This document shows positions 3-18,872 of a stretch of 20,052 nt of DNA, one piece after another. The notes beneath the pieces were generated by a model, which worked only from the letters and a program-made list of their open reading frames with translations, was not told the origin of the DNA and ran no database searches. Where the stretch lies: positions 1 to 20,052 of IMG/VR virus record IMGVR_UViG_2534681705_000013. One strand, given 5' to 3'. Source of the DNA: a virus (Duplodnaviria; Heunggongvirae; Uroviricota; Caudoviricetes). Made by a program: the position numbers and the translations under genes. Numbering within the stretch: the stretch's first letter is position 1; every line of letters begins with the position of its first letter.

Positions 3-203
3 CTATCTGGAGAAAAAGCACCAATATTATCAATCGGATACGAATATATTGATGGTGATGACATTTTTGAAATCTCTCAAGATGAGTTAAGCAAAATATA
101 TTCAGAAGGAACATTTTATTTCGATGGCAAACCAGTCCTCAATTGGCAGTCGAAAGTTTACATTTACTTTTATGCATCAGAGTTCTGGAAAGGCCTAGAA
201 TGA
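3..203 (+). CDS. hypothetical protein, C-terminal end of an ORF entering from upstream of the window
   Basis: Frame-3 reading is open from the window edge to TGA at 201-203 (…DELSKIYSEGTFYFDGKPVLNWQSKVYIYFYASEFWKGLE*). No in-window start. Stop overlaps the ATG of the next gene (ATGA at 200-203). AT-rich. Confidence 0.4.
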   Translation, partial: LSGEKAPILSIGYEYIDGDDIFEISQDELSKIYSEGTFYFDGKPVLNWQSKVYIYFYASEFWKGLE

Positions 204-865
204 TGGATAATCAGAATAATTTTACGTTAGAATCGCTGAAGTCCGCAGCGTCATTCGATGAGAGCGCAGCACGCCTTTATCGAAGAATTACATGCAATTC
301 ATACGATAAATTTATTGAAATGTTTTATATTGACTTAGAAAAAACAATCAGATTGATTGAAAAAAATGCAAGCTTAATGCAAAACGATGGAGAAGACCGT
401 TTATCTATAGAAATAATTAATATACTAATTGGCTTCGGATATGATTCTGGTCATGATAATTATATAAATGGGCACTCAGACATTGTTGTAAGTTTCAAAA
501 ACTACACATGGATTGGAGAGGCTAAAATTCATAGCTCATACGACTATTTAATGGAAGGATTCCATCAATTATGCTCTCGTTACTCCACAGGAAGTGAAGA
601 TGATTGTCAAGGAGGATTAATAATTTATGTGAAAAGCAACAATGCATTAGATGTCGTAGAGAAATGGAAAAAAACATTAACCTCTAAAAAAGATGACTTT
701 GAAGATTTTTATTTATCCGATTGCAAAACAAGAGAAAAGTTGAGCTTTTACTCTAGCCACAAACACCCTAAATCTGGATTACCATACAAAGTAAGACATT
801 TCGCTGTAATATTGGGATTTGCACCTAAAGACAAAAGTGCGAGAACAGCAAAGTCCAGAAAATAA
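200..865 (+). CDS. hypothetical protein with PD-(D/E)xK-like nuclease motif
   Basis: ORF-track ORF 143..865; the likely true start is ATG at 200 (MMDNQ…), overlapping the upstream stop. Motif GHSDIVVSF-x7-IGEAKI resembles the D…(D/E)xK core of restriction-endonuclease-fold nucleases. AT-rich, convergent with the prophage Q gene. Confidence 0.55.
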   Translation: MMDNQNNFTLESLKSAASFDESAARLYRRITCNSYDKFIEMFYIDLEKTIRLIEKNASLMQNDGEDRLSIEIINILIGFGYDSGHDNYINGHSDIVVSFKNYTWIGEAKIHSSYDYLMEGFHQLCSRYSTGSEDDCQGGLIIYVKSNNALDVVEKWKKTLTSKKDDFEDFYLSDCKTREKLSFYSSHKHPKSGLPYKVRHFAVILGFAPKDKSARTAKSRK

Positions 866-4819: not shown

Positions 4820-5049
4820 GGATGTACCTCCTGCACATCAGCCATGAGCATTTTACTGGCTGTTTCCAGCGCCTGGTCGGCGCTAATTTGCATGACAGCC
4901 AGTGAATGAGGAACGAAAGTCCCGGCATATTCTGTTTCACTGGTGGCGTGCTTATGCGCCCTGTCTGCAATAACAGGGATGTCAATAAGCGCATCCATCA
5001 GAGTTTTAATTACCGTAACAGTGGTATCTGAATAATGGTTATTACACAT
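4816..5049 (-). CDS. hypothetical protein
   Basis: ORF-track ORF 4816..5121; preferred start is ATG at 5049 (MCNNHYSD…), preceded by GGGAGG and overlapping the stop of the upstream Rha-domain gene (ATGTGTAA). Confidence 0.4.
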   Translation of the reverse strand: MCNNHYSDTTVTVIKTLMDALIDIPVIADRAHKHATSETEYAGTFVPHSLAVMQISADQALETASKMLMADVQEVHP

Positions 5050-5407
5050 GACGCGCCTCCCGTTGATTACAGCGGAAAGCGGTGTGACTGAGACTGGTTT
5101 CAGTTTCATGGAATGCTTCAATGCAGCTCTCGTAGTACCGCATTGTGCGCAGACTTAACCCAAGCTGAAGCATCATCAGGCCATCAAGGGTGATGTAATA
5201 ACCACGCAGGGAGTCACCATAGATGTGATAAGTACCCGGTATGAAATTGCGGGTAAAAAACTCGCGTGAGCAGTTCAGATACTCGATTTTGTCGACGATG
5301 TTCTGGTGCATGCGCTTAAAGTGGCAGGCAACATGCAGGGAGAAAATAACGGCCTTGCCGTTGACAACTTCAATTTTCAGGTATGGGGAAGTTGGGACTG
5401 TAGCCAT
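5042..5407 (-). CDS. phage regulatory protein, Rha family
   Basis: C-terminal 122 aa of ORF 5042..5833: KAVIFSLHVACHFKRMHQNIVDKIEYLNCSREFFTRNF…GDSLRGYYITLDGLMMLQLG…IEAFHETE matches the Rha-family pattern. ATG at 5407 is preceded by GGAGG. The in-frame upstream extension to 5833 has a TTG start and low-complexity composition. Confidence 0.55.
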   Translation of the reverse strand: MATVPTSPYLKIEVVNGKAVIFSLHVACHFKRMHQNIVDKIEYLNCSREFFTRNFIPGTYHIYGDSLRGYYITLDGLMMLQLGLSLRTMRYYESCIEAFHETETSLSHTAFRCNQREARHV

Positions 5408-5794
5408 GATGGCAGCCTCCGTATGCAATGGATAACTTCCACCACCGGAGGTTCCAATCTCACTGGTGGTGAACTGGACAGGGTTGGAACTACCGGCGCA
5501 TACGGAAACCGGCGAGCCTTTCGGCTCCCCTGCCCAGCCCACCATAATTCTGGCGTGCGTGAGCGCGGACGATAAAAAAGACGCTGGCGCGTCGTATATC
5601 GCCGTATGCAATTCCGGGGTTCCAATCCCGGCACCCGCTTTATAAGGTGCAGGGACAGTGTAACGTCCCGAAATTGCAGAATCAATATTTAGGCTTGAAA
5701 CATTCATATGCTTACTGGTATTTTTACTAACGCAAATGTTCTTGGATGTTACTGGCTTACTTCTCAGTGAAGTTGCCTTTACCAACGTTGAGCG

Positions 5795-5822
5795 AGCCGG
5801 GTCACTACCCGGCTTTTTTTTC
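5795..5822 (+). terminator. plus-strand intrinsic terminator inside the minus-strand operon
   Basis: 8-bp stem AGCCGGGT/ACCCGGCT, loop CACT, followed by a run of eight T on the plus strand. On the minus strand the hairpin is preceded by the A-run, not followed by U, so it is not a terminator there. Confidence 0.55.
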
Positions 5823-6570
5823 ACCGCTGCCAACCAATAACCTGAAATAACCCCATTTTCGGGTGATACCAGCGAGTCCCTCGCGGTTCTGCTTCCTCCA
5901 TAACCCGATAAAAAGCAGCCATAAACGGTTCCACAGCAACAATTGCGCGACGTGACAACAATCCGTCCGGCGTCATGAACTCATGGGTGTCTGTAGGAAT
6001 TTGATAGGCGTTCACCAGATTGCGGCATTTATCATCTGACAAACCGGTTTTTGCTTTCAGTTGGCGATATCCGGCATAGCCCTCACGAATGGTACCCCTT
6101 TTGATTTGCTCAACTGTTTCGGCAACATGGCTGACTTTTTCTTCCACCTGAGTGATCCGTTTCTGCTGACGAACGGCTTCAAGAGCCATCGCAGCAACCA
6201 TTTCGATTTCGCTCATTGGCTTACGGATCTGTTCTTCCAGTTCGCGCCAGCGATCTACCAGGCGAGCAGTGAATTCAGGGCAGAGCTGTGCGACGACAAT
6301 GATGCTGTCGCGTTTACCTTGTTCGCCTTCGAAGATGTAAGCACCTACATTTCGTTTTAATCCTAAGTTGTTGATTATTTCGAAATTCGCCATTGGCGCA
6401 CTTCGAATAATCCCCTTATCCATGAGCCTTTCAATGCTGCGCTTAACATCTTTGTGTTGGCTACCCACCAACTCTGCGATCTCAACGCTGGTCATGGATG
6501 CTTTGTCGTTAAAAATTGCGGTGTTCACTGCCATCTCCTTACGGATAAATTCTTTTAAGATTCCGCACAT
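5821..6570 (-). CDS. phage regulatory protein, Rha/antirepressor-like DNA-binding domain
   Basis: 249-aa ORF; MTSVEIAELVGSQHKDVKRSIERL… fits the Rha-type motif. Start is ambiguous: ATG 6570, ATG 6534, or GTG 6528 (the last has AAGGAG at 6-nt spacing). Confidence 0.55.
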   Translation of the reverse strand: MCGILKEFIRKEMAVNTAIFNDKASMTSVEIAELVGSQHKDVKRSIERLMDKGIIRSAPMANFEIINNLGLKRNVGAYIFEGEQGKRDSIIVVAQLCPEFTARLVDRWRELEEQIRKPMSEIEMVAAMALEAVRQQKRITQVEEKVSHVAETVEQIKRGTIREGYAGYRQLKAKTGLSDDKCRNLVNAYQIPTDTHEFMTPDGLLSRRAIVAVEPFMAAFYRVMEEAEPRGTRWYHPKMGLFQVIGWQR

Positions 6571-7193: not shown

Positions 7194-7304
7194 TCTTTAG
7201 CCTCACACCGGATACTCTGTTATCCAAGAATGTTAAACGCGAGAATCCAAAGTATCAAGAAATTCTGTTACTTTAGTATCAACAGCCATGAAAGGAGAAG
7301 AAAA
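7194..7304. promoter_or_regulatory. divergent promoter/operator region (OR-like) between cro-like and cI-like genes
   Basis: Repeated half-site GTATCAA at 7252 and 7276, GATAC at 7211; 12-mer CCAAAGTATCAA at 7247 recurs exactly at 7986 on the other side of cI. Confidence 0.5.
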
Positions 7305-7961
7305 ATGAAGTCTTTAGGTGAACGCCTCATCAACGCACGACAAAAAGCTGGGTTAACGCAAGATGCGTTGGCTAAAAAAGCAGGGGTCACCAGAGTTGCA
7401 ATCAGTAAAGCCGAGCAAGGCCTTACAAAAAGTTTCAACGGTGACACCCTTTTTAAAGTCGCAGCTGCACTGCAGTGTTCACCGCAGTGGCTTCAGAACG
7501 GAGATGAAAAAGATAAGCATTGGGAAAATAATGTTAAGAGCTGCCCACAGAGAGACACAGCACACTCTTACCCTGTAATTAACTGGGTTCAGGCAGGATT
7601 ATTCGCAACCGCTGGTGATGACTACAACATGTATGATCAGGATAATTGGAGGCATTCTGTAAAATACGCTGGTGAGAGGGGGTTCTGGCTAGAAGTGCAC
7701 GGAGACTCAATGACTTCGCCCGCAGGAATAACATTTCCTGAAGGAATGTCGATCCTTGTCAACCCAGATAAAGAAGTTTTTTCAGGGTGTTACGTCATCG
7801 CCAGAAAAAAATCTACCAATGAAGCAACATTCAAAAAATATATTTCTGAAATGGGAAAGGCGTTTCTAAAACCCCTTAATCCACAATATCCAATCATAGA
7901 AATGGACAATGATTGCGAAATAGTAGGTGTTGTGGTTGATGCCAGGTGGGATATTTTCTGA
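7305..7961 (+). CDS. CI-like prophage repressor (N-terminal HTH, C-terminal S24/LexA-like peptidase domain)
   Basis: ORF-track ORF 7230..7961; true start is ATG at 7305 (AAAGGAGAAG SD). HTH LTQDALAKKAGVTRVAISKAE; C-terminal GDSM motif and lysine-containing region typical of self-cleaving LexA/CI repressors. Confidence 0.85.
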   Translation: MKSLGERLINARQKAGLTQDALAKKAGVTRVAISKAEQGLTKSFNGDTLFKVAAALQCSPQWLQNGDEKDKHWENNVKSCPQRDTAHSYPVINWVQAGLFATAGDDYNMYDQDNWRHSVKYAGERGFWLEVHGDSMTSPAGITFPEGMSILVNPDKEVFSGCYVIARKKSTNEATFKKYISEMGKAFLKPLNPQYPIIEMDNDCEIVGVVVDARWDIF

Positions 7962-9243: not shown

Positions 9244-9447
9244 ATGGGAGATAAGTCAATGGAAGAAAAACAACAAAACATAACACATAAAAAAGTAAGA
9301 GTGTTGCTAACCATTGAAAATGGTGAAGTAATTTACTCAAAACATCTGTTGGATAATGAATTCGTTGGTTGCATGGATACATTTCTGTGGATGGCAAAAA
9401 GAGCTGGCTACACGATTATTCCACCAGCAAAGGAGCAAACATTATGA
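9244..9447 (+). CDS. hypothetical small protein
   Basis: 67-aa ORF (alternative start ATG 9259 with GGGAG SD); its stop overlaps the start of the next gene (ATGA at 9444-9447). Confidence 0.4.
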   Translation: MGDKSMEEKQQNITHKKVRVLLTIENGEVIYSKHLLDNEFVGCMDTFLWMAKRAGYTIIPPAKEQTL

Positions 9448-10025
9448 ATCATTCAGAGTTCCGACCAGAAGTAACGCCACATGGCATAAAAATTGGTAAT
9501 ACAACCATTGATTATATTGAGGCCGTACAGCGGCTTAATGATGGCGAATTCGATAATCCATACTGGCACGGTTTAAGAATCATGCAATGTCTTGCCGAAG
9601 CTGATGATGCCGGATTGCTGGGAAGATTTTCAGTCGATCTGAAGGTTGCTCAGTGGCGCTGGCTGTATGTGATGAAGTTTATCAGTGAAGAGGAAGACAA
9701 GAACGGCACTATTGATATCCCTAACGATAACGGGACGATAGATCGCGCAGTTATTTACAAGGGGAAACATGGTTGCATAAGTATATACCCAGGACCACTT
9801 CGCATTGCCCTGCAAAACCATGTCGAATGGGGATTTATTGAAAAATATGGCGAAACTGAAGGCATGGGGCGAGTTCTGTTTCTCTATCAAAAAATGCTCA
9901 TCGCAGATCCTGATAATGGTTTCATTCTCTCTGCTATGGGGCGCGAAGGGCTTAAACTCCTTCTGGATGAAATGATTAACGACCTGAATACTCATGGTAT
10001 GCCAGAAGCGCCTGTGACACATTAA
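9444..10025 (+). CDS. hypothetical protein
   Basis: ORF-track ORF 9369..10025; preferred start is ATG at 9444 (AAGGAG SD, MNHSEFRPE…), 193 aa; translationally coupled to the upstream small ORF. Confidence 0.55.
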   Translation: MNHSEFRPEVTPHGIKIGNTTIDYIEAVQRLNDGEFDNPYWHGLRIMQCLAEADDAGLLGRFSVDLKVAQWRWLYVMKFISEEEDKNGTIDIPNDNGTIDRAVIYKGKHGCISIYPGPLRIALQNHVEWGFIEKYGETEGMGRVLFLYQKMLIADPDNGFILSAMGREGLKLLLDEMINDLNTHGMPEAPVTH

Positions 10026-10201: not shown

Positions 10202-10390
10202 ATGAGACTGTATTTCACAATAGTAATTTTACTGGCAATTATCGCATGCATTTACGGATTACTCGTTCCGTTCCTTATATCCATGAAGGATACGATAGCA
10301 GTTATTTCTGGCTTTGCACTGGCGTTTCTGACTCCGCCCTGCATTTATGCCATTTACAAGGGGCTTTCTTTCACTAAGGATAAAAGATGA
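10202..10390 (+). CDS. small hydrophobic membrane protein (two predicted TM helices)
   Basis: 62 aa, mostly hydrophobic; stop overlaps the start of the SPFH gene (ATGA at 10387-10390). Confidence 0.45.
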   Translation: MRLYFTIVILLAIIACIYGLLVPFLISMKDTIAVISGFALAFLTPPCIYAIYKGLSFTKDKR

Positions 10391-11214
10391 AAAAAAATAT
10401 TTTTGCTTTAGCCATTGTTCTGCCGACTATTGGCCTTGTCGGTTGCGATCGCGTTGAACCAGGTAATGTTGGCATCAAGGTAAATAAACTGGGCGACGAC
10501 AAAGGCGTCGGTGAGGTGGTCGGTGTTGGTCGCTACTGGACTGGCTGGAATACTGAAGTTTATATCTTCCCCACCTTCAAACAAATGAAGACCTACGATG
10601 AACCGTTCAGTTTCCAGATGAGTGACGGTACAACCATCGGCTATCACATTGGCGTGGCCTACAAAGTTGATCCATCCAAAGTTACCACGGTGTTTCAGAC
10701 CTACCGCAAAGGCGTGGATGACATTACAGACACCGACCTGCGCCAGAAGATCGCCGACGCACTCAACCGACTGGCCAGCAAAATGACCACTGACAAATTT
10801 ATCGACGGCGGCAAGTCTGAGCTGCTGGATGAAGCTCTTAAAGACATTCAGGCAGAGATGACACCTATCGGTATTCAGGTAATGAGCCTCTCATATGTGG
10901 GTAAGCCGGAGTACCCGTCAACCGTTATCGACAGCATTAATGCCAAAGTCACGGCGAACCAGAAAACACTGCAGCGCGAGCAGGAAGTTAAACAGCGCGA
11001 AGCGGAAGCCAACATGTTGCGCGCGGAAGCTGCCGGACAGGCTGATGCGATTCGCACAAAAGCCCAGGCCGAAGCCGATGCTATTCGTTTACGCGGTGAA
11101 GCTCTGCGCCAGAACCCCGGCGTTATGGAGCTGGAAGCCATCAATAAATGGAACGGCACACTGCCGCAATACATGACTAGCGGTTCTAATACACCATTTA
11201 TCCAGGTTAAATAA
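10387..11214 (+). CDS. SPFH/band-7 (HflC/stomatin-like) domain lipoprotein
   Basis: 275 aa; signal peptide with lipobox LVGC; core resembling band-7/SPFH proteins; C-terminal Ala/Glu/Arg/Gln-rich coiled-coil typical of the family. Confidence 0.8.
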   Translation: MKKNIFALAIVLPTIGLVGCDRVEPGNVGIKVNKLGDDKGVGEVVGVGRYWTGWNTEVYIFPTFKQMKTYDEPFSFQMSDGTTIGYHIGVAYKVDPSKVTTVFQTYRKGVDDITDTDLRQKIADALNRLASKMTTDKFIDGGKSELLDEALKDIQAEMTPIGIQVMSLSYVGKPEYPSTVIDSINAKVTANQKTLQREQEVKQREAEANMLRAEAAGQADAIRTKAQAEADAIRLRGEALRQNPGVMELEAINKWNGTLPQYMTSGSNTPFIQVK

Positions 11215-12046: not shown

Positions 12047-12256
12047 GTGGGGCTGGATTGCGTGCCTATATCAACCTACTGCCGCGACGCGGGAGAAACG
12101 GTTGATGCCGTTAACAAACGGATACAAAGAGGAATATGGAAAGAAGGGGTTCATGTATTAAAAGTCGACGGAGTTAAAGAACGCTGGGTCGACTTAATAG
12201 AGGTTTCAAAATGGGCAAGAAAGAACAAGGATTATTATCTCTGCCAAGAGGAGTAA
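12047..12256 (+). CDS. putative excisionase (Xis-like DNA-binding protein)
   Basis: 69-aa ORF with GTG start and GAGGTG SD; overlaps the integrase start by 46 bp, the usual xis-int arrangement in lambdoid phages. Confidence 0.45.
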   Translation: MGLDCVPISTYCRDAGETVDAVNKRIQRGIWKEGVHVLKVDGVKERWVDLIEVSKWARKNKDYYLCQEE

Positions 12257-13395
12257 CTATTCGTAAGCATAAAACTGCTTCAACACTAGTTATCACTTTC
12301 ACATATAAAGGGGTTCTTTGCAGGGAGCCCCTGTCTCGGCTTGAGGCAAATACACGTGGTATTAAATATGCTGAGCGCCTGCTAGGGGAGATACAAAATC
12401 AGATCGCCAGCGGAACGTTTGAATATGCGAAATATTTCCCCAGTTCCAAAAAACTGGAGTTATTCGGTGTAGTAAAGAAAACCAAAAATATTAAGTCCTA
12501 TCTTGATGAATACCTGAAAATTTGCGTGAACCGCAATCTGTCGCCGTCAACCATTGGCGGTTACGAAAAATGTCTATCAGCACTATCAGAACTACATAAA
12601 CTACATGTAACAGAATTGACGCCTGCGGTACTAAAAAATTGGATAGCCAGCCGAAAAACTAAGCTGAAAACAATCAGGAACAACCTGTCATTTCTGCGCA
12701 GCGCCATTGATGAGGCTGTAACTGATGGCCTGTTGACTATTAACCCGGTAACTCTTGTCAGCGCCAGCCGGTATCACGTGGTCGACAGTAAACCGAACGC
12801 CGACGATTACGAAGTTGATCCGTTTGCGCCTGCGGAAACCAGTGCAATATATCAGCACTGCAAGTATCAGGAATGGCAGAATCTGTTCCGCTTCGCCTTC
12901 AATACAGGGCTACGCAGCTCTGAGCTATGCGCATTACGTTGGACCGATATCGACTTTATAGGTAATACAGCGCACATACAGGCAGCCAGTGTCGTAGGCG
13001 TATTGAAAGGCACCAAAACAAAAGCAGGCACCCGTAAAGTGGAATTAAACAGTGAGGCTCTGGCGGCTCTGCAAGCACAAAAGCAATTCACATTCATGAA
13101 AAGCGAGTTCATATTCAGTGACCCCAAAACGAAAGAGCCTTGGGCGAACGCTGATGCAATCCGCAAAAAAGCATGGGTTCCCACCCTTAAAAAAGCCGGT
13201 GTCCGTTACCGTAACCCCTACCAGACGCGACACACGTTCGCCACGCGGCACATCAGCCAAGGTGTAAATCTATTCTGGCTTGCTGGCCAGATGGGCCACA
13301 AAGGACCGGAAATGCTGTTCCGACATTATGGTCGCTACCTTTCGGCCTATGATGGCAAAACGTCACTTGATAGCCATGCACAACATTTTACGTGA
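12211..13395 (+). CDS. lambda-family tyrosine integrase
   Basis: 394 aa; lambda-Int-like N-terminus (MGKK…LPRGV.IRK), catalytic-domain signatures (TGLRSSELCALRW, HTFATRH, LAGQMGHK…RHYGRY). Confidence 0.9.
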   Translation: MGKKEQGLLSLPRGVTIRKHKTASTLVITFTYKGVLCREPLSRLEANTRGIKYAERLLGEIQNQIASGTFEYAKYFPSSKKLELFGVVKKTKNIKSYLDEYLKICVNRNLSPSTIGGYEKCLSALSELHKLHVTELTPAVLKNWIASRKTKLKTIRNNLSFLRSAIDEAVTDGLLTINPVTLVSASRYHVVDSKPNADDYEVDPFAPAETSAIYQHCKYQEWQNLFRFAFNTGLRSSELCALRWTDIDFIGNTAHIQAASVVGVLKGTKTKAGTRKVELNSEALAALQAQKQFTFMKSEFIFSDPKTKEPWANADAIRKKAWVPTLKKAGVRYRNPYQTRHTFATRHISQGVNLFWLAGQMGHKGPEMLFRHYGRYLSAYDGKTSLDSHAQHFT

Positions 13396-13760
13396 TCACC
13401 CTATGCGCGCGTTTCCAATCACAAACATAGCAAAACTGAAGACCACCTTGATTAAAAAAATAAGCTATCATCTATGTAATCAATAGGTAAAAAAACAGTG
13501 TAAACCACCAAATAAAACCTTAAAAATCATGATGTTACACATTAGCAAGAAATGATGCAAAAACATTTCACTTGACTTATTTTAATATTATGATTTTAAA
13601 GAAAAAATATTTTTTACAAGACAGTGTATGGACTGTGATAGTACTTGAAGAGTGGTAGTACAAGCTGTTATCCTTTGCTCCACGAATACAAGATTTTGTT
13701 GTTTTTTGATTTTCAATCACTTAGCGTATCAGCGGCGAAGCGCAATAACTGGAGTCCACT

Positions 13761-13799
13761 ATGAAAAAAACCCTAGCAGTAGGTTTTGGTGAAGGTTAA
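13761..13799 (+). other. 12-codon leader-like uORF (MKKTLAVGFGEG)
   Basis: ATG with GGAG SD at 6-nt spacing; lies 44 nt upstream of the 13844-13870 hairpin and the membrane-protein gene. Confidence 0.3.
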
Positions 13800-13843: not shown

Positions 13844-13870
13844 AAGACCTCCTCATGGAGGTCTTTTGTT
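13844..13870 (+). terminator. intrinsic-terminator-like hairpin 16 nt upstream of the 13886 start codon (possible attenuator)
   Basis: 9-bp stem AAGACCTCC/GGAGGTCTT, loop TCAT, followed by TTTTGTT; the stem pairs a GGAGG with CCTCC. Confidence 0.45.
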
Positions 13871-13885
13871 ATAGGAAACAAAGAG

Positions 13886-14809
13886 ATGGCAAGGATTATT
13901 GTCAACATCAGCGCAACAGTTTTCACCCTTATGCTCTTATTTAGGGCATTGTTCACTTACATTTATCCAGACACACTTCCTTTCGATATAGCTATCATCG
14001 ACTGGCTTGTCGTAGCTTCAGGTTCAGGTGCTGCCATTTCTTCTATCTTCTGCTTTATCAAAAAACGCTACCCCGATACAGCAGAATTTTTACCGATGTT
14101 CAGCACAATTTGTTATGTGATCGTGCTGATCGGATACGCAATATTAAGGTACACCCCCACATATCAAACCTCATTGTCAATAATGGTTACAGGGATGTTA
14201 GTTGGTATGGGATGGTGGATACAGTGCATTACTTCTGCAGCCAATACTCGCAGATCACATACCCTGAACATGATCATTAACACGCGAACCAGCCCGGAAT
14301 ACCAGAAACAATTAAGAAACAGCACCGCTTTCTATCGAGGTATGCGCTATGTACCACAAGAACTTTCAGAATGGCGATGCAACCCTGATAAAGACGAATA
14401 TAAGAATATGAAAGTACCGGAAGAATATCGCGACGCAATTAATGGGCTTCTATATATTCTTAACTACTTTGAGTTTCTTGCCCAAGGGATCAAATTCAAA
14501 GATTTAGATGACGGGTTACTAAAAGAATGTTTCTCAAGCTTCCTAAGAGGCATCGAGAGGCGAGGGTTTCACATGATCTTAGAGTCGCAAAAGCAAGACC
14601 CAGCAGCATTTGAAGGAATTATTTATCTTTCTAAAAAATGGAATGGTTCATCATTTGTAGAAACTCACCGATCAAACCCAAATACTGTTGAACTTGGTAT
14701 CCCTTATCCGTCAAACGAAATTGTTGAGAAAATGGTGAAGGGCATCCCCATCCTTGAGGAAGAACCAGCGCCAGAGTTACATCTTGCCTCCGAAACAGAG
14801 ACTCAGTAA
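13886..14809 (+). CDS. membrane protein of unknown function (about four N-terminal TM helices plus a ~190-aa soluble C-terminal domain)
   Basis: 307-aa ORF; hydrophobic segments in the first ~120 residues, charged C-terminal domain; AT-rich; between the prophage integrase and the tmRNA core fragment. Confidence 0.65.
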   Translation: MARIIVNISATVFTLMLLFRALFTYIYPDTLPFDIAIIDWLVVASGSGAAISSIFCFIKKRYPDTAEFLPMFSTICYVIVLIGYAILRYTPTYQTSLSIMVTGMLVGMGWWIQCITSAANTRRSHTLNMIINTRTSPEYQKQLRNSTAFYRGMRYVPQELSEWRCNPDKDEYKNMKVPEEYRDAINGLLYILNYFEFLAQGIKFKDLDDGLLKECFSSFLRGIERRGFHMILESQKQDPAAFEGIIYLSKKWNGSSFVETHRSNPNTVELGIPYPSNEIVEKMVKGIPILEEEPAPELHLASETETQ

Positions 14810-14895: not shown

Positions 14896-14934
14896 TATTT
14901 TCGGACACGGGTTCAACTCCCGCCAGCTCCACCA
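14896..14934 (+). other. ssrA: 3'-terminal fragment of tmRNA (ssrA): T-arm and acceptor 3' strand ending CCA; attachment-site core
   Basis: ATTTTCGGACACGGGTTCAACTCCCGCCAGCTCCACCA matches the 3' end of enterobacterial tmRNA as I recall it, with one mismatch in the T-stem; upstream sequence is protein-coding, so the tmRNA body is absent. Confidence 0.7.
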
Positions 14935-14980
14935 AAATTCTCCATCGGTGATTACCAGAGTCATCCGATGAAGTCCTAAG

Positions 14981-15014
14981 AGCCCGCACGGCGCAAGCCC
15001 TGCGGGCTTTTTTG
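14981..15014 (+). terminator. intrinsic terminator (native ssrA terminator)
   Basis: Stem AGCCCGCA…TGCGGGCT followed by TTTTTTG, downstream of the CCA end. Confidence 0.6.
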
Positions 15015-15068
15015 TGCCCTCAATTTGTCCCGCGAAGTCCGAAGAAAACTAATTAAATCCGATCCTTT

Positions 15069-15120
15069 TAGGCACCTTGTTAGGCACCTCATAAAGCTTT
15101 ATTGTTTTTTGAGGTGCCTA
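15069..15120. promoter_or_regulatory. repeat cluster upstream of the P4-type integrase gene
   Basis: TAGGCACCT at 15069 and 15081 (direct), perfect palindrome ATAAAGCTTTAT at 15091-15102, inverted copy AGGTGCCTA at 15112-15120; ends 20 bp before the integrase ATG. Confidence 0.45.
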
Positions 15121-15139
15121 AAACTATGGAAACCCGGCA

Positions 15140-16381
15140 ATGGCAAGACAAACCAAACCTCTATCCGTTAAAGAAATAGAATCAGCCAAACCCAAGGAGG
15201 CGGACTACGTTCTCTATGATGGCGATGGCCTTGAGCTACTCATTAAATCCAGCGGGAGTAAAATCTGGCAGTTTCGCTACATTCGCCCTGTCACCAAGAA
15301 ACGAGCAAAGAAGAGCATAGGCTCCTACCCGTCAGTTACCCTTGCCGATGCCAGAAACTACCGTGCAGAGTCCCGCTCACTACTGGCTAAACAGATCGAT
15401 CCGCAGGAACATCAGCAAGAACAATTGCGCAGTTCGCTGGAAGCCAAAACCAACACTTTCCAACTCGTAGCTGAACGTTGGTGGAATGTGAAGAAAGCCA
15501 GTGTGACAGAGGACTATGCGGAAGATATCTGGCGCTCTCTTGAAAGAGACGTCTTTCCTGCGATTGGCGACGTTAGCGTTACAGATATTAAAGCTCATAC
15601 ACTGGTTCAGGCCGTACAACCGGTTCAGGCCAGAGGAGCACTGGAAACTGTTCGTCGCCTGTGCCAACGTATTAATGAGGTCATGATCTATGCCCAGAAC
15701 ACAGGGCTGATTGATGCTGTTCCCAGCGTTAATATCGGTAAAGCCTTCGAGAAGCCTCAGAAAAAGAACATGCCCAGCATTCGACCGGATCAGCTACCTC
15801 AGTTAATGCAGACGATGCGAACAGCCAGCATTAGCCTTTCCACACGCTGCCTGTTCATGTGGCAACTTCTTACTATTACCCGCCCTGCCGAAGCGGCTGA
15901 AGCTCTCTGGGAAGAGGTAGACATAGAAGCGCGAGAGTGGAAGATTCCTGCAGCACGCATGAAAATGAACCGCGACCATACTGTTCCATTGTCAGATGAA
16001 GCAATTGCGATACTAGAGATGATGAAGCCGTTAAGTGGAAATCGAGAATTTATCTTTCCCAGCCGCATCAAGCCAAACCAGCCGATGAACAGTCAGACCG
16101 TAAACGCATCGCTAAAACGCGCAGGTTTTGGTGGGGTGCTCGTTTCACACGGCCTGCGATCTATCGCCAGTACAGCCCTTAATGAGCAGGGATTTCCACC
16201 TGATGTTATTGAGGCTGCACTTGCTCATGTGGATAAGAATGAGGTTCGTCGTGCGTATAACCGTAGTGATTATCTTGAGCAGCGACGGCCTATGATGCAG
16301 TGGTGGGCTGATTTTGTGATGGCTGCAGATCACGGTAGTATGATTGAAGGAGGGATAAAGGCAATGCGGTTAGTTGGATGA
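15140..16381 (+). CDS. intA: P4/CP4-57-type tyrosine integrase
   Basis: 413 aa; N-terminus MARQTKPL…KPKEADYVLYDGDGLELLIKSSGSKIWQFRY characteristic of P4-family integrases; sits ~200 bp downstream of the tmRNA 3' end as CP4-57 intA does in E. coli K-12. Confidence 0.9.
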   Translation: MARQTKPLSVKEIESAKPKEADYVLYDGDGLELLIKSSGSKIWQFRYIRPVTKKRAKKSIGSYPSVTLADARNYRAESRSLLAKQIDPQEHQQEQLRSSLEAKTNTFQLVAERWWNVKKASVTEDYAEDIWRSLERDVFPAIGDVSVTDIKAHTLVQAVQPVQARGALETVRRLCQRINEVMIYAQNTGLIDAVPSVNIGKAFEKPQKKNMPSIRPDQLPQLMQTMRTASISLSTRCLFMWQLLTITRPAEAAEALWEEVDIEAREWKIPAARMKMNRDHTVPLSDEAIAILEMMKPLSGNREFIFPSRIKPNQPMNSQTVNASLKRAGFGGVLVSHGLRSIASTALNEQGFPPDVIEAALAHVDKNEVRRAYNRSDYLEQRRPMMQWWADFVMAADHGSMIEGGIKAMRLVG

Positions 16382-16519: not shown

Positions 16520-18807
16520 CTATTTTAAATCAGCCTTTGCGGCTCGAATATCTGCGTTTTTTGCTGAGTATTCCCATTCGTCAGCGATTCTAAATAGCAT
16601 TGCAGAAGTACGGACGCAGTGGGGCATTGAATTTGCCCATTCTCGGTACTGCTCAGCTAATATCCTTTCTTGGTTTCCACCTTCGTAACGCATACGAGCA
16701 AATACCCCCCTTTTATTGTACCTACCAATTTGTATACCTTGCTCTAACTCATCAGAAGATAATATTTCAATGATGTGCCGAATTGCTTCATGTGGCCAGG
16801 AATTATCTACTGAGCTATTAGGGGCATGTGCCAGAATTTTTCCTATTACATGATCAGTGATTTCTTGGCGATGATGCAATTTTGCTAAATGGCGTACATT
16901 CTCACACCAATCTTCAAGTTTATCTTGATCAATTTCATTGTCTATCTGCCCTGGTAGTATTCGTAATTTTTCAAGTAATCTGTATATAGAAGTAGCTCTT
17001 TTAACTTCCAACTCCGATGGTTCTGTTTGTTCATCTTCGTCACTACGATATACAATACATATTGCTTCTATAAAAACCTCTGGCTTTTTCATCATTAGAC
17101 GATGCAGGATAAGTGGCTCATCGCTATCCGGAAAACAAGGCAAGTAGGTCATTTCTTTAAATGCCAAATCTGTTTCAGAAACATCGTTACGTTGTTTGAG
17201 TTCATCAAAAACTTTTTTTACATAGTACGATAGCATTGTATCAAATTGGATATCCTGGCTATTTATTTCTTTAACGACTATATCTAGAAGATATAAAAGT
17301 GTTGTAGATGGAATCTCAGAAAGGCGTTGATTTGCTGATATAATAGCAGCAAGACCCCGGCCCCTTTCTATATATTTATCCATAAGAACAAATAAATCCG
17401 AAGTTTTACCCATCATTGCAATGGGTTGTTTTTGCAACCAATATTTTTCGTTGATGTTATCTTCAAACCCTTCAATAATGCTCCATATCTCTTGTGAGTC
17501 TCTTAACGATGCTAAGATTTTCCCAGCCCTATCAGGGGTAATTTTAAACTGTTTAAAATACACTTTTATTTTATTAAGCCATTCAGCACCAAAGCATTCA
17601 ACACCATATTGCATTAACAACCCACAAACTTCATCAATATTTTTTTTGTTGTTAATAAGCATTACAAACAAATCATTTAATTTTTCTTCATCCAACGAGA
17701 GTGCTGATATATGCCTTGCTGCAATAAAAACATTATTAACTTGTTGAAAAAGGTCTTTCACCCCAGACAAACCTAAAGTAAAGTATATTTCCCTAAGTTT
17801 TTCACTTCGCATTTCTTCGACAGAAGAAAAAATTCCGCCAGCATTTTCAATTGACTCTTCAATATCAGAATCCCAATCATTGAAAATCCATAAACTGGCT
17901 CTAACCATGTCAATTGGTTTATAATTATCAAGTATTTTCGCTATTTTTTCCATAGACTCAAATTTAAATGCCCAGTTCGCATCTGAATATTTTTTATGGC
18001 GAGAATACTCATGACGCAAAGCCTCCCATACGATGAACTGATCCTCTTCAGTTTGTTGAGAAAGGCAAAGTTCAAGATGAGAAAGTGTTTCATCTATTGC
18101 ATTCTCAGGGAATGAGCTTAAATGAGAGATTAGGATTTCCCATCTTGTTGGGAGTATACCTGCAAGTTTAATTGCTTCTTGGATAATAAAGATTTGCCCC
18201 TCCCAAACAACGCCCCACGTTAGTTTTTCTACATCTTTATCCGACTCTCTGAACTTCATTTTTTGGTTTTGATCAGAGGTATCATGGGAGCGAGGAAGGA
18301 GATTTTGTAACAAACTCCACCCAATACTAGGAACAATAGTGATAATTTTTTTTATAATTGCATTTCTAACTTTTACTGGTGCCCATGTATTAGGAGACCA
18401 TGCCAGAAAAATGGTTCTTAAACTATTAAGAGGGCGATCTGAGTAAGTTCCTCCGGGATCTATTACAGCGAGTTTTGCAAGACAGATTGCAGCGCGTAAT
18501 AGATATGTTTGTTCCCAAGCCAAGGCTTCCAATGCCCATTTTAATCCATGATAATGACTTCGAGGAGTTAACAGCCCTTTATCTTCATTGAATATTGGAG
18601 CAATCATTTCCCCATTGCCCTTAAGCAATTGCTCAAGGGCATCAAGGAAAGGGCCAGGGGCAGCTTCTGCCAGCAGCGGAAGTTGATCTCGCAAACTAAC
18701 AAATAGTCGATGGTCGTTAGCAAGTCCCGGAATACTCTGAACTATTTTGTTAACAAAATCTTGGGGTGTCATACCAGTAACCCGGAATTCGGCCTGTTCA
18801 TGTAATA
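16520..18807 (-). CDS. large alpha-helical protein of unknown function, adjacent to or 5'-interrupted by IS3
   Basis: ORF-track ORF 16520..18823 (767 aa); the first 5 codons including the TTG start lie inside the IS3 left inverted repeat. Strongly AT-rich; Leu/Glu/Lys/Trp-rich; no catalytic motif recognised by eye. Native start is either ATG at 18775 or beyond the IS. Confidence 0.65.
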
Positions 18808-18872
18808 TGATCTTACCCAGCAATAGTGGACACGCGGCTAAGTGAGTAAACTCTCAGTCAGAGGTGACTCAC

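What the first reader, a model, noticed from the sequence alone, without database searches (positions are those of the whole stretch)
13886..14809. Membrane protein moron at the att-proximal end of the prophage
Seen in sequence: a 307-aa AT-rich ORF with about four N-terminal TM helices and a ~190-aa charged C-terminal domain, located between the integrase and the tmRNA core, behind the leader/hairpin above. Inference: att-adjacent morons with membrane anchors are often lysogenic-conversion, exclusion or abortive-infection effectors; this one has no domain I recognise.
Basis: inference. Interest (0 to 1): 0.6.

Follow-up and report, generated by a model that had tools for sequence, protein, structure and literature searches.

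The report
Phage membrane gene with conserved leader peptide
The ORF is a real, strongly conserved prophage accessory gene for an inner-membrane protein of the uncharacterised DUF4760 family. It sits between the integrase and the ssrA attachment core, and in every relative examined it is preceded by a tiny Gly-rich leader ORF plus a terminator hairpin, which suggests conditional expression and makes it a testable candidate phage-conflict module.

Summary
ORF 13886-14809 encodes a 307-aa protein with four N-terminal TM helices (predicted N-in/C-in), a 175-aa all-helical cytoplasmic domain and a disordered acidic tail. It lies between a lambdoid integrase and the single 36-nt ssrA 3' core.

It is identical to WP_000101041.1. 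The function is unknown, and there is no match to PADLOC, NCBIfam or any solved structure by sequence.

It behaves as a moron:
- It is AT-richer than its flanks.
- It has its own conserved promoter.
- It is under strong purifying selection.
- It recurs as the last gene at prophage/chromosome junctions in enterics, Cronobacter, Pseudomonas and Stutzerimonas.

New finding: all 42 distinct homologous loci with upstream DNA (22-100% protein identity) carry an SD plus a 7-20-codon mini-ORF, most ending in G-x-G-x-G/S-stop (here MKKTLAVGFGEG*). An intrinsic terminator follows, and it sits too close to the DUF4760 start for an internal promoter. Rfam does not cover this element.

An exclusion or abortive-infection role remains plausible but untested.

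The parts
12211..13395 (+). Prophage tyrosine integrase (394 aa), directly upstream of the module.
   Evidence: Pfam Arm-DNA-bind_2, Phage_integrase and SAM-like domains. In all enterobacterial homolog loci of at least 82% identity that carry an intact prophage, an integrase 69-100% identical lies directly upstream of the DUF4760 gene.
13645..13674 (+). Conserved sigma-70-like promoter of the module: -35 TTGAAG (13645-13650), TG-extended -10 TGtTATCCT (13666-13674).
   Evidence: The block TTGA(a/t)(g/c)-N17/18-TGnTAT(c/g)(c/a)T is conserved in all enteric-type loci, although the surrounding spacer is barely alignable. It scores 8/12 and was missed by the consensus scan. Function is inferred.
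13751..13799 (+). Leader: SD GGAG (13751-13754) and a 12-codon mini-ORF at 13761-13799, MKKTLAVGFGEG-stop.
   Evidence: An equivalent mini-ORF is present in all 42 distinct homolog loci with upstream DNA, most ending in G-x-G-x-G/S-stop. All polymorphisms within the GFGEG codons of 13 enteric/Stutzerimonas variants are synonymous third-position changes.
13844..13869 (+). Intrinsic terminator/attenuator hairpin AAGACCTCC-TCAT-GGAGGTCTT plus TTTTG. It lies 44 nt after the leader stop and 20 nt before the DUF4760 ATG.
   Evidence: 9 pairs, 5 GC. The hairpin is present with different, compensating arm sequences in every locus. It is the only consensus structure found by RNAalifold, with 3 of 6 pairs showing double changes.
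13886..14809 (+). DUF4760-family membrane protein gene (307 aa plus stop), identical to WP_000101041.1.
13892..14239 (+). Four-TM region (aa 3-118). Conserved polar residues lie in the TM helices (R20, D39; GMGWWIQ in TM4).
   Evidence: Hydropathy, the AlphaFold model and invariant columns in the 46-sequence alignment.
14237..14761 (+). Cytoplasmic all-alpha domain (aa 118-292), the DUF4760 core. Conserved motifs: RRxHTLN..RTSxEYQ, LNYFEFLAQGI, DLDxxLLxECF, ERRGF..E.QK and W252.
   Evidence: Pfam match to aa 106-252. Model pLDDT 93.6, pTM 0.88. Conservation. The best structural neighbours are the EDS1-family EP domains, at borderline scores.
14762..14806 (+). Variable acidic C-terminal tail (aa 293-307), predicted disordered.
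   Evidence: pLDDT below 50 for residues 292-307. Not conserved in the alignment.
14899..14935 (+). att core: a copy of the last 36-37 nt of ssrA (tmRNA), marking the right end of the prophage.
   Evidence: 97% identity to tmRNA positions 332-367 of L010. Sub-threshold Rfam tmRNA hit. It is the only copy in the window.
14995..15017 (+). Native ssrA terminator. It is the first terminator-like site downstream of the DUF4760 stop and probably ends the moron transcript (inference).
   Evidence: Terminator scan. No terminator-like site lies between 14810 and 14994.
15140..16381 (+). P4/CP4-57-type integrase of a second integrative element, in tandem at ssrA (context only).
   Evidence: Pfam Arm-DNA-bind_3, Phage_int_M and Phage_integrase. 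The same arrangement occurs in O26:H11 11368 and phi467.

Best explanation
This is a self-contained phage accessory (moron) cassette with five parts: its own promoter, an SD plus 12-codon leader ORF (MKKTLAVGFGEG-stop), an intrinsic terminator, the gene for a DUF4760 inner-membrane protein (4 TM, helical domain in the cytoplasm), and then the prophage end.

Shown:
- the anatomy of the cassette;
- its conservation from 100% down to 22% protein identity;
- purifying selection on the gene;
- a recurrent position as the outermost gene of prophages;
- no room for a promoter between the hairpin and the gene, so transcription must read through the hairpin.

Inferred: translation of the leader decides how much transcription passes the terminator, so the membrane protein is made at a low or conditional level in the lysogen. 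C-terminal Gly is the residue released most slowly by release factors, so a ribosome probably lingers at the leader's stop codon.

Further inferred (the least certain step): the protein acts at the inner membrane in phage-host or phage-phage conflict, through superinfection exclusion or abortive infection. Its cytoplasmic helical domain would be the sensing or partner-binding part. Perturbed translation, or the leader peptide itself, would be the signal.

The confidence given is for the whole statement. The descriptive part (a conserved moron cassette with leader, terminator and DUF4760 membrane protein) I hold at about 0.9. The conflict role I hold at about 0.35.
For: Family and structure:
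- Family membership and architecture.
- 531 family clusters, mostly 2-4 TM plus DUF4760.

Genomic position:
- Enterics: Int -> leader -> DUF4760 -> att(ssrA) in every locus with an intact prophage, and in 87 of 5426 complete E. coli genomes, including O26:H11, O103, O55:H7 and SF O157.
- Cronobacter: Int -> DUF4760 -> core genes at another att site.
- P. aeruginosa: queA-tRNA | DUF4760 | phage lysis/tail genes. The gene is also the terminal gene of the isolated phage Riah.
- P. putida and S. stutzeri: same position, at the prophage junction.
- Acinetobacter phage TRS1: a moron slot between the tail chaperone and the tape measure.
- 19 of 37 viral contigs of at least 20 kb have the gene within 2.5 kb of an end, against 5.1 expected.

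Leader and terminator:
- Found in 42 of 42 distinct loci with upstream DNA. The background rate of G.G.G-stop is 0.054 per kb per strand. Leader-stop-to-hairpin distance is 9-44 nt. Hairpin-to-start distance is 3-34 nt in 39 of 42 loci.
- Only synonymous variation occurs in the GFGEG codons.

Composition and selection:
- GC 41% against 46-50% in the flanks.
- pN 0.07-0.23 against pS about 0.8-0.96.

Literature:
- Gly at position -1 gives the slowest peptide release (PMC10802582, citing Pierson 2016).
- Precedent for a mini-ORF plus ribosome-controlled intrinsic terminator ahead of downstream genes: mccA (PMC4231749).
Against: - There is no functional evidence at all.
- No family member matches PADLOC defence models convincingly (best E 6.7e-4 to 1e-2, scattered).
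- The PHROG families matched have no assigned function.
- No recurrent neighbour or partner gene was found.
- No conserved antiterminator pairing was found between leader, spacer and terminator arm. The coupling mechanism and its direction are therefore unknown.
- In enterics the stop-to-hairpin distance (about 40-44 nt) is too long for simple steric masking by a terminating ribosome.
- Leader C-termini differ between clades (GVEG, IGCEE, GDGYA, TGDI). This fits co-evolution with the protein at least as well as a universal ribosome-arrest motif.
- The gene could equally give the lysogen a benefit unrelated to phages.
Confidence: 0.4

Rival explanations
1. Peptide-plus-receptor (toxin/antitoxin-like or mcc-like) pair. 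The mini-ORF peptide is itself a product, made in excess from the short terminated transcript. It binds the cytoplasmic DUF4760 domain as inhibitor, ligand or cargo. Loss of the short-lived peptide when translation is shut off would activate the membrane protein.
For: The peptide C-terminus is conserved at the amino-acid level but varies between DUF4760 clades: VGFGEG, IGYGEG, GVGAG, DGYGIS, DGIGLG and GVEG. This is as expected for co-evolution with a partner. A terminator between an upstream small ORF and a downstream gene gives the peptide-over-protein stoichiometry seen in mccA/mccB (PMC4231749). The soluble domain is a helical, non-enzyme-like fold with many invariant polar residues.
Against: There is no direct evidence for a stable peptide. 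Peptides of 7-12 aa without a signal sequence are usually degraded quickly. The layout is equally typical of cis-acting attenuators. No complex prediction could be run.
Confidence: 0.2
2. Lysogenic-conversion stress protein. The cassette is induced by ribosome-targeting antibiotics, bacteriocins or termination inhibitors, as with the leader-peptide-controlled cat, cmlA, erm and ABC-F genes. It protects the lysogen's envelope or translation rather than acting on phages.
For: A short leader ORF plus terminator is the classic design of inducible resistance genes, for example msrD and bmrCD (titles listed). The gene is carried by prophages of pathogens such as EHEC O26/O103/O55 and P. aeruginosa.
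Against: There is no similarity to any transporter, resistance or enzyme family. Four TM helices plus a helical domain is not a known efflux architecture. Family members also sit in strictly phage-internal moron slots.
Confidence: 0.15
3. The protein serves the phage's own life cycle, for example control of lysis timing, of DNA entry or exit, or of integration and excision. On this view it is not an accessory gene.
For: It is adjacent to int/att in enterics and to the lysis cassette in Pseudomonas phages.
Against: It is linked to different functional modules in different phages (int, lysis, tail). It is transcribed from its own promoter, often convergent with phage genes. It is present in only 87 of 5426 E. 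coli genomes, and decayed copies exist. Its composition differs from its neighbours. These are the hallmarks of a dispensable moron.
Confidence: 0.08
4. Chance ORF or decaying remnant with no function.
For: Pseudogenised or truncated copies exist in Enterobacter sp. EA-1 and in O145:H28.
Against: The protein is conserved over 531 clusters. pN is far below pS. The fold is predicted with high confidence. The regulatory leader is conserved.
Confidence: 0.01

Closest known systems
Pfam PF15956 (DUF4760), RefSeq 'DUF4760 domain-containing protein' (WP_000101041.1)
   Same: Direct member: 55.7 bits against a cut-off of 25. The match covers TM4 plus the helical domain. All 140 diverse relatives tested match the family.
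   Different: The family has no described function. This subfamily adds three further N-terminal TM helices and an acidic tail. The conserved leader ORF and terminator found here are not in Rfam. In the full-text library searched, the family name occurs in one unrelated paper, and one search on leader-peptide attenuation in prophages turned up nothing matching; the peptide motif itself was not searched.
Prophage morons and lysogenic-conversion genes at int-att junctions (e.g. P22 gtrABC; lambda rexAB/sieB as membrane-linked exclusion genes). From general knowledge.
   Same: Position at the prophage end, own promoter, deviating GC content, patchy distribution, membrane localisation.
   Different: No sequence relationship to any of them was detected. 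Function is untested. Unlike RexAB, it is one polypeptide (a 4-TM part fused to the soluble part) plus a mini-ORF.
Ribosome-mediated transcription attenuators and the mccA-mccB ribosome-controlled terminator (PMC4231749)
   Same: An SD plus a very short ORF, followed by an intrinsic terminator that transcription must pass to reach the downstream gene.
   Different: There are no runs of one regulatory codon, and no conserved antiterminator was detected. The conserved feature is a Gly-rich C-terminus directly before the stop. The thr leader peptide also ends in GNGAG-stop (from memory, not tested).
EP domain of plant EDS1/PAD4/SAG101 (PF18117)

Membership tests
Pfam DUF4760 (PF15956) | HMM match above the curated gathering score. 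| tested here: met
   E 7.9e-15, 55.7 bits against a cut-off of 25, aa 106-252 on profile positions 8-141 of 141.
Pfam DUF4760 (PF15956) | A TM helix followed by a helical soluble domain with the conserved N-[YF]-[YF]-E-F and DLD motifs. | tested here: met
   G109, R134, N193, E196, F197, D208 and W252 are at least 90% conserved over 140 diverse members. Structural models.
Prophage moron | Extra gene at a module boundary or prophage end, present in some related phages and absent from others. | tested here: met
   It is the outermost gene in enteric, Cronobacter, Pseudomonas and Stutzerimonas prophages. It is present in 87 of 5426 E. coli genomes. Contig-end enrichment is 19 observed against 5.1 expected.
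Prophage moron | Own promoter and terminator. | tested here: inconclusive
   A conserved TTGA..-N17/18-TGnTATnnT block lies upstream. The first downstream terminator is the ssrA terminator. No transcript data are available.
Prophage moron | Nucleotide composition different from neighbouring phage genes. | tested here: met
   GC 41.3% against 46.5% (int) and 49.5% (intA).
Prophage moron | Expressed from the repressed prophage. | not testable with these tools
   Needs RNA-seq or Northern blots of a lysogen.
Known anti-phage defence / Abi systems (PADLOC-DB 2.0) | Significant match to a defence-protein HMM. | tested here: not met
   Query: only DrmMII at E 0.01. Among 140 family members there are only scattered single hits, E 6.7e-4 or weaker.
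Leader-peptide transcription attenuator | An SD plus short translated ORF upstream of the regulated gene. | tested here: met
   GGAG lies 6 nt before the ATG, followed by 12 codons. The element is conserved in 42 of 42 loci, with only synonymous variation in the motif codons.
Leader-peptide transcription attenuator | An intrinsic terminator between leader and gene, with no promoter downstream of it. | tested here: met
   A hairpin plus T-run is present in every locus, with compensatory arm changes. The gene start lies 3-34 nt after the hairpin in 39 of 42 loci.
Leader-peptide transcription attenuator | An alternative (antiterminator) RNA structure controlled by ribosome position. | tested here: inconclusive
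   Duplex energies for leader-end:spacer, leader-end:5' arm and spacer:5' arm are not consistently better than shuffles. RNAalifold finds only the terminator.
Leader-peptide transcription attenuator | Read-through responds to ribosome stalling or translation of the leader. | not testable with these tools
   Needs reporter fusions and toeprinting.
EDS1-family EP domain (PF18117) | Sequence-profile match. | tested here: not met
   No PF18117 hit in the query or in 140 relatives at E up to 1. No PDB sequence hit.
EDS1-family EP domain (PF18117) | Shared fold. | tested here: inconclusive
EDS1-family EP domain (PF18117) | Fusion to a lipase-like domain and action downstream of TIR enzymes. | tested here: not met
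   The N-terminus is a 4-TM module. Only 1 of 150 neighbouring ORFs matched TIR models.

The most novel reading that the evidence does not exclude
The mini-ORF peptide and the DUF4760 protein form a previously undescribed two-part, translation-sensing phage-defence switch. The cytoplasmic domain would be a distant prokaryotic/phage relative of the plant EDS1/PAD4 EP domain, which has been thought to have no structural relatives. It would act as the ligand- or peptide-binding receptor that gates the 4-TM module to stop an infection.
Probability: 0.1. Interest if true: 0.85.

Novelty: new variant of a known kind. Interest (0 to 1): 0.62.

Why it matters
DUF4760 proteins are carried by temperate phages of EHEC (O26, O103, O55:H7), Klebsiella, Cronobacter, Pseudomonas aeruginosa and Acinetobacter, yet nothing is known about their function.

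- The leader/terminator signature (a Gly-rich C-terminus before the stop, then a terminator) runs across the whole family and appears undescribed. It gives a concrete experimental handle: it predicts conditional expression tied to translation, and it can be tested with simple reporter fusions.
- If the cassette is an exclusion or abortive-infection module, it would add a compact, single-gene, translation-sensing defence type to the catalogue. It would also explain a recurrent cargo at prophage ends.
- If the EP-like fold is real, it would give the plant EDS1 signalling domain its first relative outside plants.

Tried and rejected
1. NCBIfam gave no hit, PADLOC no convincing hit, and the PHROGs matched have no assigned function.
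2. Sequence search of all PDB chains with a 140-sequence profile returned only TM-helix noise.
3. Foldseek of the full-length model against PDB found nothing significant. The afdb50 library was unavailable.
4. A second homologous-protein run with the diverse profile returned almost only the close relatives already known.
5. A search for a conserved antiterminator or alternative pairing in 20 leaders gave no consistent signal. RNAalifold found only the terminator.
6. Rfam, at both gathering and permissive thresholds, has no family for the leader. The weak Phe_leader hit (22.5 against 55 bits) is just the terminator.
7. A survey of 150 ORFs flanking the gene in about 50 distinct contexts looked for a recurrent partner gene or defence-island context. 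Only integrases recur (11 ORFs). There were single hits to AbiTii, a TIR effector and PDC-S35, which I did not localise.
8. A second ssrA core between int and the gene would have made the cassette a separate islet. None was found.
9. The first megablast count of 8 E. coli genomes was an undercount. A sensitive search with the leader region gives 87.
10. Housekeeping transporter or enzyme: rejected. The weak MFS and 4HB_MCP matches (E 0.2-0.25) are hydrophobic noise.
Full report
**1.

The ORF at 13886-14809 (+) starts with ATG and encodes 307 aa. A 19-residue hydropathy scan gives four hydrophobic segments at about aa 3-25, 35-58, 67-88 and 97-118. Basic residues lie at the N-terminus, in loop 2 (KKR) and just after TM4 (RR..R), and loop 1 is acidic. 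The positive-inside rule therefore predicts N-in/C-in, with the 189-aa C-terminal part (24 K+R, 28 D+E) in the cytoplasm.

The gene has 41.3% GC. The integrase gene upstream has 46.5%, the integrase downstream 49.5%, and the upstream spacer 33.7%.

The upstream neighbour at 12211-13395 is a tyrosine integrase. Ninety bases after the stop codon lies a 36-nt copy of the 3' end of tmRNA at 14899-14934, 97% identical to a complete tmRNA (sub-threshold Rfam hit). No complete tmRNA or tRNA is in the window. This is the only core copy in the window. The gene is therefore the last gene inside a lambdoid prophage; a CI-like repressor lies at 7230-7961. A second element with a P4/CP4-57-type integrase (15140-16381) follows in tandem.

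**2. What the protein is**

The protein is 100% identical to the RefSeq CDS WP_000101041.1, 'DUF4760 domain-containing protein', which sits in the same position in E. coli E300082.

- NCBIfam has no model for it.
- PADLOC gives only a chance-level hit.
- The four PHROG families that match are all of unknown function.
- The name DUF4760 occurs in one paper of the full-text library, in a gene list.

A word-indexed search found 53 relatives of about 300-320 aa in Enterobacteriaceae, Shewanella, Pseudomonas, Stutzerimonas, Halomonas and Cronobacter, at 47-93% identity. An exhaustive profile search found 531 clusters at E up to 1e-3. Most have 2-4 N-terminal TM helices followed by the DUF4760 domain. 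All 140 tested match PF15956 and no other real domain.

Within the close subfamily, conserved positions include:
- polar residues inside the membrane (R20, D39, and GMGWWIQ in TM4);
- a juxtamembrane RRxHTLN..RTSxEYQ motif;
- LNYFEFLAQGI, DLDxxLLxECF and ERRGF..E.QK.

Across the whole family G109, R134, N193, E196, F197, D208 and W252 are at least 90% conserved. Against enterobacterial homologs pN is 0.07-0.23, while synonymous sites are saturated (pS 0.79-0.96). This indicates strong purifying selection.

**3. Structure**

AlphaFold2 with the 46-sequence alignment gives a confident all-helical model (pLDDT 83.8). It has four TM helices, TM4 running on into a long helix, a helical bundle and a disordered tail from residue 292. 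The soluble domain alone (aa 118-292) gives pLDDT 93.6 and pTM 0.88.

No solved structure is related by sequence. By fold, the best matches are the EP domains of the plant immune proteins:
- Foldseek: 9 of the top 15 hits are EDS1 or PAD4 chains, but with E 0.9-4.3 and TM 0.29-0.43.

The two methods agree, yet the scores are borderline for an all-alpha domain. No PF18117 sequence signal exists in the family. The EP domain is said to have no structural relatives outside the EDS1 family (PMC6377607). I therefore record this as a lead, not a classification.

**4. Context in other genomes**

- *Enterics.* In all enterobacterial loci of at least 82% identity that carry an intact prophage, a 69-100% identical integrase lies directly upstream and the ssrA core or a P4-type integrase downstream.
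- *E. coli.* A sensitive search with the leader region finds the cassette in 87 of 5426 complete genomes: 8 with this allele and 79 with an allele about 78% identical in DNA. Once per genome, e.g. Int -> DUF4760 -> intA in O26:H11 11368. The initial megablast count of 8 was an undercount.
- *Cronobacter.* The arrangement is Int -> DUF4760 -> core genes at a different att site.
- *P. aeruginosa.* The gene lies between queA plus a tRNA and the lysis/tail end of a prophage. It is the terminal gene (43439-44392 of 44821) of the sequenced phage Riah.
- *P. putida and S. stutzeri.* The same junction position.
- *Halomonas and a MAG.* A tRNA-Pro lies about 2 kb upstream.
- *Acinetobacter phage TRS1.* A 242-aa homolog (26% identity) occupies a classic moron slot between the tail chaperone and the tape-measure genes.
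- *Viral contigs.* Of 37 contigs of at least 20 kb, 19 have the gene within 2.5 kb of a contig end, against 5.1 expected.
- *Decayed copies.* Enterobacter sp. EA-1 has a frameshifted copy, and O145:H28 retains only the last 164 nt.
- *Neighbours.* Among 150 ORFs flanking the gene in about 50 distinct contexts, only integrase domains recur (11 ORFs). There is no recurrent partner. Known defence hits are single cases: AbiTii, a TIR effector and PDC-S35.

**5. The leader**

Upstream of the ORF lie an SD (GGAG, 13751-54), a 12-codon ORF (13761-13799, MKKTLAVGFGEG-stop) and a 9-bp GC hairpin with a T-run (13844-13869). The hairpin ends 20 nt before the DUF4760 start.

Every homologous locus that has upstream DNA shows the same layout: 42 distinct leader/hairpin combinations. 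The 8 loci without it have little or no sequence upstream of the gene.

Leader lengths range from 7 to about 20 codons and the N-terminal parts are unrelated. Most C-termini follow G-x-G-x-G/S-stop:
- VGFGEG (enterics, Shewanella, S. stutzeri);
- IGYGEG, GVGEG, GVGAG, GTGAG (Pseudomonas and relatives);
- DGYGGG, HGSGCG, [DE]GIGLG;
- DGYGI[GS] (Acinetobacter phages).

GVEG and EGWGG are also Gly-rich with a terminal Gly. A few leaders are outliers: IGCEE, SGCNE, GDGYA and TGDI.

The background frequency of G.G.G-stop in the 2.4 Mb of held sequence is 0.054 per kb per strand, true cases included. Among 13 GFGEG variants all polymorphic sites are synonymous third positions, so the peptide, not the RNA, is under selection.

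The hairpin arms differ between clades but stay complementary: GACCTCC/GGAGGTC, GGCTTCC/GGAAGCC, GGCCC/GGGCC, ACTCCTC/GAGGAGT, GCACCCAC/GTGGGTGC and GCATCC/GGGTGC. It is the only consensus structure found by RNAalifold.

The gene start follows the hairpin by 3-34 nt in 39 of 42 loci. This leaves no room for a promoter, so the gene can only be transcribed by read-through. A conserved TTGA..-N17/18-TGnTATnnT block (13645-13674) is the likely promoter. Rfam has no family for this element.

**6. How it probably works**

*Shown:* a cassette of promoter, translated mini-ORF, intrinsic terminator and membrane-protein gene, conserved as a unit through the whole family.

*Inferred:* leader translation controls terminator read-through. 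Gly is the C-terminal residue with the slowest release-factor-catalysed release (PMC10802582, citing Pierson 2016). A ribosome is therefore expected to dwell at the leader's stop codon. In clades where the stop lies only 9-16 nt from the stem, that ribosome would abut the hairpin.

I could not find a conserved antiterminator. In enterics the spacing is 40-44 nt. The coupling mechanism and its direction therefore remain open. The mccA-mccB system shows that a ribosome on a 7-codon ORF can itself control an adjacent intrinsic terminator, and there the peptide is also the substrate of the downstream gene products (PMC4231749). The clade-specific variation of the leader C-terminus fits an additional trans-acting role of the peptide, as ligand or inhibitor of the cytoplasmic domain. 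I keep this as the main rival.

*Least certain:* the biological role. No database or experiment supports this directly.

**7. Verdict**

- The moron interpretation is supported.
- The 'no recognisable domain' statement is corrected to DUF4760.
- The function is still unknown.

What is new is the family-wide Gly-rich leader peptide plus terminator and the borderline EP-like fold. I rate it a new variant of a known kind: a phage moron under leader-peptide control, in a catalogued but uncharacterised family. Interest is moderate to high.

Noticed in passing
window 5462-5650 (-), with ORFs 5042-5833 and 5821-6570 (-): Rfam C4 antisense RNA (84.3 bits) and isrK (63.6 bits) lie next to Ash/Rha-family ORFs. 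This is a P1/P7-type C4-antirepressor immunity module inside a lambdoid prophage that also has a CI-like repressor at 7230-7961. A C4 RNA also occurs in the unrelated DUF4760-carrying viral contig L099.
   Followed up: no
window 16520-18823 (-): A 767-aa ORF in a very AT-rich stretch (GC 0.32-0.39), just downstream of the P4-type integrase of the second island. It has no Pfam or PADLOC match. It is a possible uncharacterised cargo or defence gene.
   Followed up: partly
window 143-865 (+) and 9369-10025 (+): Two further ORFs (240 aa, GC about 0.33; and 218 aa) have no Pfam or PADLOC hit.
   Followed up: partly
window 10387-11214 (+): An SPFH/Band-7 membrane-scaffold protein is encoded in the prophage early-left region, upstream of DUF5406/DUF4222-type small genes and int.
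   Followed up: no
window 13465-13486: An inverted-repeat-like block (CTATCA-N10-CAATAG here; a perfect CTATCA-N10-TGATAG in related loci) is conserved just downstream of the integrase stop, in an otherwise poorly alignable spacer. It may be an operator or protein-binding site.
   Followed up: no
window 13567-13642: Two additional promoter-like sites were found by the scan. One contains a TTGACT (13572-13577) whose TTGAC is conserved across enteric loci. It lies upstream of the promoter proposed for the cassette, and its role is unknown.
   Followed up: no
window 14899-16381: Two integrative elements sit in tandem at ssrA: the lambdoid prophage ends at the 36-nt core, and a CP4-57-like intA island follows immediately. 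In strain E300082 the same prophage end is followed instead by ypjA.
   Followed up: partly
L010 7014-8766 (Enterobacter sp. EA-1); E. coli O145:H28 RM12761/RM13516: Decayed copies. In EA-1 the leader and the DUF4760 ORF are frameshifted and lie directly after an intact tmRNA. In O145:H28 only the last 164 nt of the gene plus the att core remain, at 100% identity.
   Followed up: partly
neighbour ORFs of distant homologs (alignment A5): One of 150 flanking ORFs matched TIR effector/PycTIR models, one matched AbiTii and one matched PDC-S35. I did not determine which loci. The TIR neighbour would be relevant to the EP-like fold lead.
   Followed up: no
P0004 (425 aa, Logan assembly): One database protein joins an arginase-family domain (PF00491) to DUF4760 at 93% identity to the query. 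It is probably a gene-call or assembly fusion.
   Followed up: no
leader 13761-13799: From memory, the E. coli thr operon leader peptide also ends in G-N-G-A-G-stop just before its attenuator. Whether a Gly-x-Gly-x-Gly-stop ending has a general role in attenuators was not examined.
   Followed up: no
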